Positions 6,001 to 9,000 of a stretch of DNA of 64,000 nucleotides are shown here, one piece after another; position 1 is the first letter of the stretch, and each line of letters begins with the position of its first letter. The DNA lies in IMG/VR virus record IMGVR_UViG_2718217789_000003, one strand, 5' to 3'. Position numbers: made by a program. The DNA comes from a virus. Its lineage: Duplodnaviria > Heunggongvirae > Uroviricota > Caudoviricetes.

Positions 6001-9000
6001 CACATGCTGTACTGCACCTGGGCCATGTAAGCCGACTTTATGGCCTCGAAACCACCGAGCCGGAACTTCATGAAATCCCGGGAGGTAAACGGGCATTTCA
6101 GCTCAAGGCCATTGCCGTCACTGCATAAACCATCGGGAGAGCAGGCGGTACGCATACTTTCGTCGCGATAGATGATCGGGGATTCAATAACATTCACGCC
6201 GGAAGTGAACTCAAACAGGGTTCTGGCGTCGTTCTCGTACTGTTTTCCCCAGGCCAGTGCTTTAGCGTTAACTTCCGGAGCCACACCGGTGCAAACCTCG
6301 GCAAGCAGGGTGTGGAAGTAGGACATTTTCATGTCAGGCCACTTCTTTCCTGAGCGGGGCTTTGCTATCACGTTGTGAACTTCTGAAGCGGTGATGACGC
6401 CGAGCCGTAATTTGTGCCATGCATCATCCCCCTGTTCGACAGCTCTCACGTCGATTCCGGTACGCTGCAGGATAATGTCCGGTGTCATGCAGCCACCTTC
6501 TGCTCAGAGGCTTTCTGTTTCAGGAATCCAAGAACTTTCACTGCTTCGGCCTGTGTCAGTTCTGACGATGCGCGAATGTCGCGGCGAAATATCTGGGAAC
6601 AGAGCGGCAATAAGTCGTCATCCCATGTTTTATCCAGGGCGATCAGCAGAGTGTTAATCTCCTGCATGGTTTCATCGTTAACCGGAGTGATGTCGCGTTC
6701 CGGCTGGCGTTCTGCAGTGTATGCAGTATTTTCGACAATGCGCTCGGCTTCATCCTTGTCATAGATACCAGCAAATCCGAAGGCCAGACGGGCACACTGA
6801 ATCATGGCTTTATGCCGTAACATCCGTTTGGGATGCGACTGCCACGGGCCGGTGATTTCTCTGCCTTCGCGGGTTTTGAATGGTTCGCGGCGGCATTCAT
6901 CCATCCACTCGGTAACGCAGATCGGATGATTACGGTCTTTGCGGTAAATCCGGCATGTACAGGATTCATTGTCCTGCTCAAAGTCCATGCCATCAAACTG
7001 CTGGTTTTCATTGATGATGCGGGACCAGCCATCAACGCCCACCACCGGAACGATGCCGTTCTGCTTATCAGGGAAGGCGTAAATTTCTTTCGTCCACGGA
7101 TTAAGGCCGTACTGGTTGGCGACGATCAACAATGCGATGAACTGCGCATCGCTGGCATCACCTTTAAATGCCGTCTGGCGAAGAGTGGTGATCAGTTCCT
7201 GTGGGTCGACAGAATCCATGCCGACACGTTCAGCCAGCTTCCCTGCCAGCGTTGCGAGTGCTGTACTCATCCGCTTTATACCTCTGAATCAATATCAACC
7301 TGGTGGTGAGCAATGGTTTCAACCATGTACCGGATGTGTTCTGCCATGCGCTCCTGAAACTCAACATCGTCATCAAACGCACGGGTAATGGCTTTTTTGC
7401 TGGCCCCGTGGCGTTGCAAATGATCGATGCAGAGTGATTCAAACAGGTGCTGGGGCAGACCTTTTCCCATGTCGTCTGCCAGTTCTGCCTCTTTCTCTTC
7501 ACGGGCGATCTGCTGGTAGTGACGCGTCCAGCTCTGAGCCTCAAGACGATCCTGAATGTAATAAGCGTTCATGGCTGAACTCCTGAAATAGCTGTGAAAA
7601 TATCGCCCGCGAAATGCCGGGCTGATTAGGAAAACAGGAAAGGGGGTTAGTGAATGCTTTTGCTTGATCTCAGTTTCAGTATTAATATCCATTTTTTATA
7701 AGCGTCGACGGCCTCACGAAACATCTTTTCATCGCCAATAAAAGTGGCGATAGTGAATTTAGTCTGGATAGCCATAAGTGTTTGATCCATTTTTTGGGAC
7801 TCCTGGCTGATTAAGTATGTCGATAAGGCGTTTCCATCCGTCACGTAATTTACGGGTGATTCGTTCAAGTAAAGATTCGGAAGGGCAGCCAGCAACAGGC
7901 CACCCTGCAATGGCATATTGCATGGTGTGCTCCTTATTTATACATAACGAAAAACGCCTCGAGTGAAGCGTTATTGGTATGCGGTAACGCCGCGCTCAGG
8001 CGGCTTTGATAGTCATATCATCTGAATCAAATATTCCTGATGTATCGATATCGGTAATTCTTATTCCTTCGCTACCATCCATTGGAGGCCATCCTTCCTG
8101 ACCATTTCCATCATTCCAGTCGAACTCACACACAACACCATATGCATTTAAGTCGCTTGAAATTGCTATAAGCAGAGCATGTTGCGCCAGCATGATTAAT
8201 ACAGCATTTAATAAAGAGCCGTGTTTATTGAGTCGGTATTCAGAGTCTGACCAGAAATTATTAATCTGGTGAAGTTTTTCCTCTGTCATTACGTCATGGT
8301 CGATTTCAATTTCTATTGATGCTTTCCAGTCGTAATCAATGATGTATTTTTTGATGTTTGACATCTGTTCATATCCTCACAGATAAAAAATCGCCCTCAC
8401 ATTGGAGGGCAAAGAAGATTTCCAATAATCAGAACAAGTCGGCTCCTGTTTAGTTACGAGCGACATTGCTCCGTGTATTCACTCGTTGGAATGAATACAC
8501 AGTGCTGTGTTTATTCTGTTGTTTATGCCAAAAATAAAGGCCACCATCAGGCAGCCTTGTTGTAAATGTTGCAGGTATCAAGTAAGTAATTAGATGGAGC
8601 GCCATAAATTATGAATTCATCGTTTGTCGGGTCCATCTCCATCTCTTGTCCTATTGCCATTCTTGCGTCAGTGTCGTCAGCGGCGAAGCATAAAACAGCC
8701 CACGCACCCATTGTTTTAAAAAGAACTGCAATTGGCTGTGGTTTTACTGAATTTGCGTTAGCGCGAAAATCACAAATCGCACTTTCATGAAATTCCATAT
8801 ATCACCTCAAATAAGTGGTTTGCTGCCTAATTTCATTTTCTGGCGACCAACACAAGTCATCTTGCTGTCAGTTGTTTGGATTTACGGTAGCCTGCCGCGT
8901 AAAGAGCTACATTTGGAAGACAAGTTGAGCCTTCATATTTTCTGGTCAACGTTGTCAGTGTTATTACTTCTGCTCTCATTGCTGGTTTGCGTTTGCATTG

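What the first reader, a model, noticed from the sequence alone, without database searches (positions are those of the whole stretch)
8473..8798. Unrecognised gene in the ral position plus a perfect 9-bp inverted repeat downstream
ORF 8547..8798 (83 aa, good RBS) directly follows N where lambda encodes the restriction-alleviation protein Ral, but shows no resemblance to Ral as I recall it. Downstream, a perfect inverted repeat GTGTATTCA-N10-TGAATACAC (8473-8500) precedes a terminator (8381-8410). The gene may be a different anti-restriction or anti-defence function; the repeat may be an RNA processing or binding site.
Basis: partly seen in the sequence, partly recalled or inferred. Interest (0 to 1): 0.4.

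Follow-up and report, generated by a model that had tools for sequence, protein, structure and literature searches.

The report
Orphan ral-slot gene beside PreS sRNA
In this Shiga-toxin prophage an uncharacterised small acidic protein gene sits where phage lambda carries its anti-restriction gene ral. The inverted repeat and terminator downstream of it are the conserved flank and the end of the already described phage small RNA PreS, so most of the finding is ordinary.

Summary
The window is the Sp5/VT2-Sakai Stx2 prophage, with the pL operon on the minus strand.

**The ORF.** ORF 8547-8798 is ECs1180/H0090, a full-length member of phrog_2471.
- It is a real gene (dN/dS 0.05-0.19) and encodes an acidic protein (pI 4.2).
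- It replaces lambda orf28+ral exactly, sharing the RBS with ATG-GAA upstream and the last codons with the stop-codon terminator downstream.
- It is not a Ral relative (no Pfam hit; hhalign probability 0.6%).
- It has no detectable homologue outside about a dozen enterobacterial prophage clusters.
- The identical protein (UDP0060) was in a published 200-gene accessory-gene screen. Ral scored as an R-M inhibitor there; this protein is not among the reported hits.
- A 2016 study could not delete it from an Sp5 lysogen.

**The RNA features.** The 182-bp spacer is about 98% identical to lambda ral-ea10.
- The terminator is tL2a, the 3' end of the Hfq-dependent sRNA PreS/LPR1 (here 8384-8471, 87/88 identical, seed intact).
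- The inverted repeat ends 2 nt before PreS +1.
- On the pL-sense RNA it forms a 12-14-bp stem.
- Its 24 stem bases are unchanged in divergent variants whose loops differ.

My best reading is an RNA element that defines or insulates the PreS 5' end. That role is inferred, not shown.

The parts
8857..9129 (-). N antiterminator gene. It is the first gene of the pL operon. No terminator is predicted between it and the ORF.
   Evidence: PF25694 E 3.4e-32. Annotated as N in VT2-Sakai. The terminator scan of 7900-9500 finds none between 8857 and 8798.
8807..8860 (-). Conserved linker and 17-codon mini-ORF (MTCVGRQKMKLGSKPLI) overlapping the N stop codon. It is a mosaic joint that carries the RBS of the slot gene.
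   Evidence: Sequence. tblastn finds the same peptide at or under the 3' end of N genes of many lambdoid phages. Similarity to lambda resumes in a short stretch just upstream of the RBS, about CCACTTATTTGAGGTGATATATGGAA, with a few mismatches.
8801..8808 (-). Shine-Dalgarno GAGGTGAT. It is shared with lambda orf28.
8547..8798 (-). ORF83 (ECs_1180, H0090, UDP0060 / mEp234_034). An 83-aa acidic protein of unknown function and a member of phrog_2471. It replaces lambda orf28+ral.
   Evidence: - Identity and family: (E 1.4e-61).
- Module swap.
- dN/dS 0.05-0.19.
- pI 4.24.
- Not Ral.
- Literature.
8527..8558 (-). hp1, an intrinsic-terminator-like hairpin (9 bp, loop UGAU, then UAUUUUUGG). Its 5' arm encodes the last codons K-A-A-stop of the slot gene. 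It is the downstream recombination junction of the cassette and the likely first terminator after pL.
   Evidence: scan; -13.9 kcal/mol. Shared with lambda ral. Annotated as a rho-independent terminator in phage mEp234.
8473..8500 (-). The inverted repeat. On the pL-sense RNA it forms a 12-bp stem (one G.U) with loop CAAC. The stem extends to 14 consecutive pairs (8471-8502) and, with one A.A mismatch, to 8468-8505.
   Evidence: Stem invariant and loop variable across loci. It ends 2 nt before PreS +1.
8384..8471 (-). PreS (LPR1) sRNA gene, 88 nt. The seed is at 8419-8436. The shorter ~68-nt form would start near 8451.
   Evidence: Paper 10.1101/2024.10.31.621285. Table S5 primers P810, P969, P970, P971 and P1104 define the ends and seed. 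It is 87/88 identical to lambda, the one change lying in the terminator loop at 8402. Fold.
8381..8412 (-). tL2a, the rho-independent terminator of PreS (8-bp stem and U-run).
   Evidence: The paper identifies the LPR1 3' end with tL2a.
7996..8364 (-). ea10 (DUF2528), the downstream conserved flank.
   Evidence: (PF10800, E 6.7e-47).

Best explanation
The finding joins two independent modules of a lambdoid early-left (pL) operon.

**(1) ORF83.** It is a genuine small acidic accessory protein. It has been swapped into the hypervariable accessory slot that holds orf28+ral in lambda. The exchange used two shared functional elements as recombination joints: the RBS with its first two codons upstream, and a terminator hairpin (hp1) that encodes the last codons downstream. 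No terminator is predicted between N and ORF83. I therefore infer that ORF83 is made with N as an immediate-early product and acts on a host or competitor target. It is not a Ral-type protein, and its target is unknown.

**(2) The repeat and terminator.** They belong to a conserved cassette of about 124 nt (8383-8506) that encodes the Hfq-dependent sRNA PreS. In lambda, PreS activates dnaN translation, represses alaS and supports lytic replication.

The inverted repeat is an RNA hairpin on the pL-sense transcript that abuts the PreS 5' end. I infer that it defines or insulates that end. It would do so by folding independently of whatever variable gene lies upstream, and by presenting a double-stranded or coaxially stacked junction to a processing nuclease. 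RNase III is the leading candidate. After cleavage the hairpin would also cap the upstream mRNA's 3' end.

**Shown versus inferred.** Shown here or in the cited papers: the anatomy, the homology, the selection on the ORF, and PreS identity and function in lambda. Inferred: ORF83 timing and role, and the hairpin's role in PreS maturation.
For: **Identity of the locus**
- The window is 100% identical to VT2-Sakai/Sp5 and related Stx phages.

**Module swap**
- The 182-bp spacer is about 98% identical to lambda.
- Outside the short shared stretches at each edge (RBS/ATG-GAA and the last codons) the two cassettes are unrelated in sequence.

**ORF83 is a real gene**
- dN/dS is 0.05-0.19 with saturated dS against Citrobacter, Klebsiella and Enterobacter homologues.
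- In five of the six loci fetched for the Citrobacter, Klebsiella and Enterobacter homologues, the ORF83 homologue is the first gene after the antiterminator (three different Pfam families, or an unannotated ORF in N's position). In L153 a TerB-like and a DUF3927 gene precede it instead. The same position holds in mEp234.

**The slot is hypervariable**
- Among 123 loci, the gene just upstream of the hairpin falls into at least 13 unrelated families.
- These include Ral 44, gp45-like 19, Nmad5 11, a 149-aa membrane protein 9 and ORF83 8.
- Silas et al. treat it as an accessory region containing ral. [quoted passage not shown]

**PreS**
- Location, size, tL2a and function come from the paper.
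- The ends and seed come from the primer sequences.
- The window copy is 87/88 identical.
- The authors list Stx phages, including phage 2851, as carriers.

**The hairpin**
- The minus-strand RNA forms 12 continuous pairs at -14.2 kcal/mol (z -7).
- The extended form is -21.7 kcal/mol, against -15.8 on the other strand.
- There are 14 consecutive pairs including G.U.
- In the 124-nt precursor it stacks directly on PreS stem-loop 1.
- Among 145 loci, 144 keep both arms. These show only 3 single-base stem changes, one of them an A-to-G change that keeps a G.U pair. The exception is HK022, whose 5' arm was lost to an IS903 insertion.
- In divergent variants the PreS body is only 65-70% identical (about 81% over aligned columns) and the loop is changed at 2/4 or 4/4 positions. 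All 24 stem bases are unchanged (0.81^24 is about 0.006).
- No sigma-70 promoter is predicted upstream of PreS +1, which favours processing from the pL transcript.
Against: **Hairpin**
- No covariation is seen, because the stem bases do not vary. Sequence-level conservation of two half-sites with a free centre is also what a DNA operator would show.
- Ascertainment is partly biased: the loci were found with exact anchors in PreS or in the hairpin.
- Most copies are more than 92% identical, so hitch-hiking is hard to exclude.
- The PreS paper does not map the 5' end biochemically or discuss biogenesis, so the +1 is only as good as their primer design.
- A 12-14-bp stem is short for a classical RNase III substrate.

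**ORF83**
- No homologue of known function, no confident structure (pLDDT 52) and no reported phenotype in the accessory-gene screen.
- Rho-dependent termination between N and ORF83 cannot be excluded.
Confidence: 0.6

Rival explanations
1. ORF83 is a functional analogue of Ral: a non-homologous inhibitor or modulator of type I (or another) restriction-modification system.
For: - It sits in exactly the same cassette position as ral.
- It is inferred to be immediate-early.
- It is small and acidic (pI 4.24), as many anti-restriction proteins are.
- Two other slot families are linked to restriction evasion: Ral, and the predicted nucleotide-modification protein Nmad5.
Against: - No similarity to Ral or any anti-restriction family.
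- It lacks Ral's conserved Cys quartet.
- The identical protein (UDP0060) was screened alongside Ral, Ocr and ArdA. It is not among the genes that increased plaquing.
- The acidity is moderate: 12 of 83 residues.
Confidence: 0.08
2. ORF83 is needed by the lysogen itself, for example as an antitoxin-like or anti-induction factor made from the repressed prophage. Its loss would then be lethal.
For: Mondal et al. 2016 could not obtain in-frame deletions of ORF21 (ECs1180) or ORF23 (ECs1184) in a K-12(Sp5) lysogen. They suggested both are required for stable lysogeny.
Against: - This is a negative result of unknown cause.
- pL is repressed in lysogens, and no separate promoter is predicted beyond chance.
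- The two 'undeletable' genes are the nearest neighbours on either side of OL/pL-N. The method cloned long flanks into a multicopy plasmid in a non-lysogen and then into a suicide vector.
- Such flanks could carry unrepressed pL-N(-kil) or titrate CI. That gives a technical explanation; this is my inference, not tested.
- Many related prophages carry other genes in the slot.
Confidence: 0.1
3. The inverted repeat is a DNA operator for a dimeric DNA-binding protein of phage or host, not an RNA element.
For: Both half-sites are conserved at the sequence level while the central 4 bp vary freely. That is the classic operator pattern.
Against: - The extra pairs that lengthen the stem are G.U pairs, valid only on the pL-sense RNA. 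The other strand folds 2.6-5.9 kcal/mol worse.
- By my own inspection the repeat does not resemble the CRP, LexA, IHF or Fur consensus sites. No tool scan was run.
- The pattern occurs once in the 64-kb window, so it is not part of an operator set.
- It directly abuts a processed sRNA end.
Confidence: 0.07
4. The hairpin has no role in PreS maturation. It either stabilises the 3' end of the upstream mRNA, or it is a neutral linker kept because it lies in a recently spread, recombination-prone block.
For: - Most copies are more than 92% identical.
- Mosaic junctions fall just upstream of it, around GAATAA / GCACTG.
- One locus (L165) keeps the hairpin but has lost PreS.
- HK022 keeps PreS but lost the 5' arm to IS903.
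Against: - Loop bases change while all 24 stem bases stay fixed, in variants whose PreS body has diverged by about 19-35%. A neutral linker would not behave this way.
- The hairpin and PreS co-occur in about 120 of about 127 loci, whatever gene lies upstream.
Confidence: 0.2

Closest known systems
Lambda Ral (PF11058) with orf28, the cassette replaced here
   Same: - Same position in the pL operon.
- Same RBS and first two codons as orf28.
- Same last codons (N-K-A-A-stop) and the same downstream terminator hairpin as ral.
- Same 182-bp spacer to ea10.
   Different: - No sequence or profile similarity.
- 83 aa and acidic (pI 4.2), against 66 aa and basic (pI 8.8).
- No Cys quartet.
- One ORF instead of two.
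- Ral scored as a type I R-M inhibitor in the accessory-gene screen; this protein did not.
PreS / LPR1, the Hfq-dependent sRNA of phage lambda (Silverman et al. 2024, bioRxiv 10.1101/2024.10.31.621285)
   Same: 87/88 nt identical, with identical seed, terminator tL2a and position upstream of ea10. The authors already list Stx phages as carriers.
   Different: One base differs, in the terminator loop (8402). The upstream neighbour is ORF83, not ral. The paper does not discuss the conserved 5'-flanking hairpin.
Other accessory genes of the same slot, such as orf184/UDP0184 (trigger of the P4 gop-beta-cII Abi system), HK97 gp45 / 933W-type 156-aa protein, and Nmad5 proteins
   Same: They are alternative cargo immediately upstream of the hairpin-PreS cassette. 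Several share the K-A-A-stop / hp1 junction.
   Different: They are unrelated in sequence. ORF83 has no reported phenotype.
sRNAs cut from longer operon or 3'-UTR transcripts, and the RNase III sites of lambda pL RNA (N leader, sib). Both are recalled from established knowledge.
   Same: The sRNA sits inside a long operon transcript with no promoter of its own predicted. A stable stem lies at the cleavage point.
   Different: The processing enzyme is untested. The stem (12-14 bp, or about 17 bp with one mismatch) is shorter than typical RNase III substrates. No RNase E-like AU-rich single strand is present at the 5' end.

Membership tests
Ral antirestriction family (PF11058) | Sequence or profile match to PF11058 or to Ral homologues | tested here: not met
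   - No Pfam hit at E<=1.
- BLASTP finds no alignment.
- hhalign of the ORF83 family against 23 Ral sequences gives probability 0.6%.
Ral antirestriction family (PF11058) | Four conserved cysteines (C11, C17, C20, C26 of lambda Ral) in a small basic protein | tested here: not met
   The Ral alignment shows the invariant and near-invariant Cys. ORF83 has only C37 and C76 invariant. pI is 4.24 against 8.78.
Ral antirestriction family (PF11058) | Position between N and ea10/cIII in the pL operon | tested here: met
   Exact cassette replacement with shared junctions.
Ral antirestriction family (PF11058) | Alleviates type I restriction or enhances modification | not testable with these tools
   From the literature only. 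The identical protein UDP0060 is not among the genes with a counter-defence phenotype, while Ral is.
phrog_2471 (unknown function) | Full-length HMM match | tested here: met
   E 1.4e-61, residues 1-83 matching profile positions 1-83 of 83.
PreS / LPR1 sRNA | Sequence identity to lambda PreS, including the 18-nt seed | tested here: met
   87/88 identical, and the seed (8419-8436) is identical.
PreS / LPR1 sRNA | Rho-independent terminator with U-tail (tL2a), located just upstream of ea10 | tested here: met
PreS / LPR1 sRNA | Hfq binding, dnaN activation, lytic-cycle expression | not testable with these tools
   Shown for lambda only.
Intrinsic terminator (hp1, 8527-8558) | G+C-rich stem followed by a U-tract | tested here: met
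   - 9 pairs, 5 of them G-C, then TATTTTTGG.
- -13.9 kcal/mol.
- Annotated as a terminator in mEp234.
- Termination activity not tested.
RNase III processing site (for the inverted repeat) | About two helical turns of dsRNA around the cleavage point | tested here: inconclusive
   There are 14 consecutive pairs, or about 17 with one A.A mismatch, or a 12-bp stem stacked on PreS stem-loop 1. Dependence on rnc is not testable here.
Own sigma-70 promoter for PreS within or upstream of the repeat | -35/-10 hexamers at a suitable distance from +1 (8471) | tested here: not met
   The scan of 7900-9500 finds no site there. By inspection, the hexamers at -10 match at most 2-3 of 6 positions.
boxB / nut-type N-binding hairpin | Short stem with a conserved purine-rich pentaloop | tested here: not met
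   The loop is 4 nt and varies: CAAC, CAGT, CAAT, CAGC, TTCT.

The most novel reading that the evidence does not exclude
ORF83 is the founding member of a new immediate-early phage effector family with one of two roles. Either it counters a defence system absent from the strains screened so far, or the prophage needs it to keep the lysogen alive, which would explain why ECs1180 could not be deleted. Separately, the conserved hairpin is the cis-acting signal that lets the PreS sRNA be cut out correctly from behind any of more than 13 different upstream genes.
Probability: 0.15. Interest if true: 0.6.

Novelty: new member of a known kind. Interest (0 to 1): 0.3.

Why it matters
**The RNA features.** It also shows that this Shiga-toxin phage carries an intact copy.

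The one new observation is the hairpin. It is strictly conserved, folds best on the pL-sense strand, and abuts the PreS 5' end. The unaddressed question of how PreS is made from the pL transcript can now be tested with a handful of mutants.

**The ORF.** Three scattered facts about the protein are now linked:
- It is the Sp5 gene ECs1180, reported as undeletable.
- It is gene 60 of a published accessory-gene screen.
- It is a ral-slot cassette.

It remains a well-conserved orphan in a hotspot where neighbouring alleles inhibit restriction or trip abortive-infection systems.

Tried and rejected
**Database and structure searches on ORF83**
- Pfam, NCBIfam and PADLOC gave no hit.
- A profile search of 1.8 billion representatives found only the family itself. 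The two long hits are spurious: P0022 was read and is a low-complexity repeat protein, and P0021, with 44 matched stretches in 3126 aa, was judged so from that pattern alone.
- The PDB sequence search found nothing below E 0.09.
- The AlphaFold2 model was poor (pLDDT 52), so the Foldseek search against BFVD is uninformative (best E 0.16). I ran no further search on it.

**RNA family searches**
- Rfam at gathering threshold, and at E<=10 on 8340-8900, gave no family for the repeat or PreS. PreS is not in Rfam 15.

**Published EHEC sRNAs**
- EcOnc20 maps to about 9455-9580, the pRM-operon terminator region, so it is not PreS.
- EcOnc22 lies in the Sp15 tail region.
- HnrS is a different sRNA in other prophages.

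**Other ideas**
- A promoter for PreS inside or upstream of the repeat was rejected (plus inspection).
- By inspection the repeat does not match the CRP, LexA, IHF or Fur consensus sites.
- The genome-contig scan returned mostly lambda DNA contaminating unrelated assemblies, so it added little diversity.
- Covariation analysis of the hairpin was not possible because the stem bases do not vary.
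Full report
**1. What the window is**

The region is 100% identical to Stx-converting phages of E. coli O157:H7: VT2-Sakai/Sp5, Stx1 converting phage, phage 2851 and the PA series. In the Sakai chromosome the ORF is ECs_1180 (window coordinate = Sakai coordinate minus 1,246,173).

The early-left operon runs on the minus strand, in this order:
- pL, about 9319-9347.
- N, 8857-9129 (PF25694).
- The 83-aa ORF, 8547-8798.
- A 182-bp spacer.
- ea10, 7996-8364 (DUF2528).
- cIII with its thermosensor (RF01804), then kil, gam and bet.

**2. Checking the observation**

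All three described features exist at the stated coordinates.
- The ORF has an 8-nt Shine-Dalgarno match, GAGGTGAT.
- The perfect 9-bp inverted repeat with a 10-nt spacer is at 8473-8500.
- The terminator is at 8412-8381.

A 9-bp perfect inverted repeat is not rare in itself. The window has 32 with loops of 3-30 nt, against 5.7 +/- 2.8 in shuffles. The repeat's significance rests on its stability and conservation, covered in section 6.

Its sequence is AAGGCUGCC-UGAU-GGUGGCCUU followed by UAUUUUUGG, at 8558-8527. It overlaps the ORF's stop codon.

**3. The spacer is lambda sequence, and the ORF is a cassette swap**

Alignment with lambda 33,870-34,500 shows about 98% identity. The identity runs from the last four codons of the ORF (N-K-A-A-stop, shared with ral) through hp1, the inverted repeat and the terminator into ea10.

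Upstream, identity resumes at the RBS and the first two codons (ATG GAA). In lambda these belong to orf28, whose end overlaps the start of ral. ORF83 therefore replaces orf28+ral exactly, and the spacer length is the same (182 bp) in both phages.

The two joints are functional elements: an RBS and a terminator whose 5' arm encodes K-A-A-stop.

**4. What ORF83 is**

*It is a real gene.* Against homologues from Citrobacter, Klebsiella and Enterobacter prophages (70-83% amino-acid identity), dN/dS is 0.05-0.19 and dS is saturated.

*Its family is small.*
- Searches of 5.8 billion proteins and of 1.8 billion cluster representatives find only about a dozen enterobacterial clusters.
- The two long hits are spurious: P0022 was read and is a repeat protein, and P0021 was judged so from its 44 matched stretches.
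- It matches phrog_2471 (unknown function) end to end, E 1.4e-61.
- It matches nothing in Pfam, NCBIfam, PADLOC or PDB.

*It is not Ral.*
- No BLASTP alignment.
- hhalign probability 0.6% against a 23-sequence Ral profile.
- No Cys quartet.
- pI 4.24 and charge -7.4, against pI 8.78 for Ral.

*Its structure is unresolved.* The AlphaFold2 model is poor (pLDDT 52; predicted order helix, strand, strand, helix, helix). Fold searching was uninformative.

*Its position is conserved.*
- In five of the six loci fetched for the distant homologues it is the first gene after the antiterminator. The antiterminators are of three different Pfam families (N_peptide, N36, Phage_N_antitermin) or lack a Pfam hit. 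In L153 a TerB-like and a DUF3927 gene precede it instead.
- In coliphage mEp234 it follows an HK97-type N.
- Those distant loci lack the hairpin and PreS, so the ORF and the RNA cassette are independent modules.

*Its timing is inferred.* In this phage no intrinsic terminator is predicted between N and ORF83, and hp1 is the first one. I therefore infer that ORF83 is co-transcribed with N before antitermination. Rho-dependent termination cannot be excluded.

**5. What the literature says about ORF83**

*(a) Deletion attempts.* Mondal et al. 2016 (PMC5155283) tried to delete every unknown Sp5 gene in a K-12 lysogen. They failed only for ORF21 (ECs1180, this ORF) and ORF23 (ECs1184). They suggested both are needed for stable lysogeny.
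- Their method cloned long flanks into a multicopy plasmid in a non-lysogen and then into a suicide vector.
- The two genes are the nearest neighbours on either side of OL/pL-N.
- Flanks carrying an unrepressed pL-N(-kil), or titrating CI, would explain both failures.
- That explanation is my inference, so the result stays ambiguous.

*(b) Accessory-gene screen.* Silas et al. (bioRxiv 10.1101/2023.04.06.535777; Nat Commun 2025, PMC12373910) synthesised 200 phage accessory genes and screened them in wild E. coli.
- Their UDP0060 (AFM76313.1 of mEp234) is 100% identical to ORF83.
- Ral, Ocr and ArdA increased plaquing as type I R-M inhibitors.
- The listed genes with phenotypes are orf7, 24, 48, 63, 92, 98, 116, 126, 143, 145, 148 and 184. 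Gene 60 is not among them.
- Their orf184 triggers the P4 gop-beta-cII abortive system and is described as lying in the same accessory region as ral. It is one of the slot families I recovered independently.

The slot is therefore already recognised as an accessory-gene hotspot. ORF83 has been sampled from it without a reported phenotype. This lowers the Ral-analogue reading but does not exclude other targets.

**6. The repeat and terminator belong to PreS**

Silverman et al. 2024 (bioRxiv 10.1101/2024.10.31.621285) describe LPR1/PreS.
- It is an Hfq-dependent lambda sRNA located between ral and ea10.
- It is about 88 nt, with a processed form of about 68 nt.
- Its 3' end is the tL2a terminator.
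- It is expressed only in the lytic cycle.
- It activates dnaN translation by opening the RBS, and it represses alaS.
- It is needed for full phage DNA replication.

Their primers define the ends.
- The cloned sRNA starts GAGCAATGTCG.
- The full-deletion arm ends ...GTGTATTCATTCCAACGAGTGAATACACG.
- The in vitro template ends ...GGGCGATTTTTTA.

In window coordinates PreS is 8471 to 8384 on the minus strand. The 18-nt seed is at 8436-8419. The only difference from lambda is one base in the terminator loop, at 8402. The authors already list Stx phages, including phage 2851, as carriers.

The inverted repeat ends 2 nt upstream of PreS +1. PreS is not in Rfam.

**7. The inverted repeat itself**

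*Fold.*
- On the pL-sense RNA the repeat forms 12 continuous pairs, one of them G.U, with a CAAC loop: -14.2 kcal/mol, z -7.1.
- It extends to 14 consecutive pairs (8471-8502), so PreS +1 is paired. With one A.A mismatch it extends to 8468-8505 at -21.7 kcal/mol.
- The opposite strand folds worse, at -11.6 and -15.8 kcal/mol.
- In a 124-nt precursor the hairpin stacks directly on PreS stem-loop 1, with no unpaired base between them.

*Conservation.*
- In about 145 loci from phage records, IMG/VR and genomes, the hairpin always precedes PreS.
- The gene upstream belongs to at least 13 unrelated families, or is IS903.
- Homology between different contexts begins at GAATAA / GCACTG, just before the stem.
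- Of the 145 loci, 144 keep both arms. Their 24 stem positions show only three single-base changes, one of them an A-to-G change that keeps a G.U pair. HK022 lost its 5' arm to the IS903 insertion, and in the ungapped comparison that accounts for the remaining counted differences.
- The loop occurs as CAAC, CAGT, CAAT, CAGC and TTCT.
- In the most divergent variants (Salmonella-type loci and L162) the PreS body is only 65-70% identical, or about 81% over aligned columns, and the loop is changed at 2-4 of 4 positions. All 24 stem bases are unchanged.
- At 19% divergence, the chance of 24 unchanged bases is about 0.006.

*Natural exceptions.*
- HK022: IS903 removed the 5' arm.
- L165: PreS is deleted and the hairpin is kept.

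*Other checks.*
- No sigma-70 promoter is predicted for PreS.
- The PreS paper does not address how the 5' end arises and does not mention the hairpin.

**8. Most likely mechanism**

Shown:
- The anatomy, the conservation and the strand-specific fold.
- PreS identity and its function in lambda.

Inferred:
- pL transcripts that stop at hp1 give an N-ORF83 immediate-early mRNA.
- Read-through transcripts carry the hairpin and PreS.
- The hairpin folds independently of the variable upstream gene.
- It places the PreS 5' nucleotide at a double-stranded or stacked junction, where a nuclease cuts. RNase III is the best candidate, because the site is paired and is not AU-rich single-stranded RNA.
- The hairpin then remains as a 3' cap on the upstream mRNA.
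- PreS, bound by Hfq through the tL2a U-tail, acts on dnaN.

I put about 0.5 on the hairpin acting at the RNA level in PreS biogenesis or insulation. I put about 0.95 on 8384-8471 being PreS.

For ORF83 I commit only to 'an immediate-early accessory effector acting on a host or rival-element protein'. That carries about 0.3 for some counter-defence or takeover role and under 0.1 for type I anti-restriction.

**9. Novelty**
- PreS and tL2a are already known.
- The slot is a known accessory region.
- ORF83 is catalogued and has been screened, but remains an orphan.
- The hairpin's tight association with the PreS 5' end appears undescribed in the papers I could read.

Overall this is a new member of known kinds, of modest interest.

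Noticed in passing
window 9858-10379 (-): This is ECs1184 (H0093), a 173-aa protein of unknown function. It lies downstream of cI in the rexAB-like position. It is the only other Sp5 gene reported as impossible to delete (Mondal et al. 2016). Like ECs1180, it flanks the OL/pL region.
   Followed up: partly
window about 9455-9580 (-): The orphan Hfq-binding peak EcOnc20 of Tree et al. 2014 (Sakai 1255628-1255753) maps here. The site lies over the putative terminator of the pRM (cI) transcript, which suggests a 3'-end-derived Hfq-bound RNA of the immunity operon. The coordinate conversion assumes the two Sakai sequence versions agree.
   Followed up: partly
window 8807-8860 (-): A 17-codon mini-ORF (MTCVGRQKMKLGSKPLI) starts inside the N stop codon. 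tblastn finds the same peptide at or under the 3' end of N genes in many lambdoid phages, such as mEp043, mEp213 and HK542. It looks like a remnant of another N allele's C-terminus that now serves as a mosaic joint.
   Followed up: partly
loci L004, L043, L063, L077, L162 (Salmonella-type and other divergent PreS variants): These PreS relatives keep the hairpin and the first 20 nt. Their seed is altered (for example GTTCTGGTTAATCGAAAAATC), they carry a 13-16-nt insertion, and the terminator stem shows compensatory changes. They may have a different target range.
   Followed up: no
L005 (HK022) 1140-1380; L165: These are natural 'mutants'. In HK022 an IS903 insertion removed the 5' arm of the hairpin but left PreS. 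In L165 the hairpin and 8 nt of PreS are fused directly to the cIII RBS, so PreS and ea10 are deleted.
   Followed up: partly
loci L029, L047, L054, L056 and others: Five loci carry a 23-codon remnant of ral (MVWAIRTTAMIARELGKQNNKAA) upstream of hp1. This shows decay of the cassette in some prophages.
   Followed up: no
window 577-693, 16767-16952, 17897-17980, 21562-21802, 23213-23424: Other Rfam matches in the window:
- ALIL pseudoknot, minus strand, typical of an IS3-family frameshift site.
- isrK, next to a C4 antisense RNA.
- sRNA-Xcc1.
- Three tRNAs.
- STnc100, 158 bits.
   Followed up: no
L011, L016, L028 and other genome-contig hits: PreS matches turn up in Shewanella, Pseudomonas, Bacillus-group and other unrelated assemblies. 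Several (e.g. L011, L016, L028) lie on low-coverage contigs of about 48.4-48.5 kb; others are on shorter contigs. They are almost certainly lambda DNA contamination (lambda is 48.5 kb), not real carriage.
   Followed up: no
window 8608-8635 (-): A promoter-like site (TGGACC-16-CATAAT) lies inside ORF83 and points towards the hairpin and PreS. The number of such sites in the region is no higher than in shuffles (4 found, 3.8 expected).
   Followed up: no
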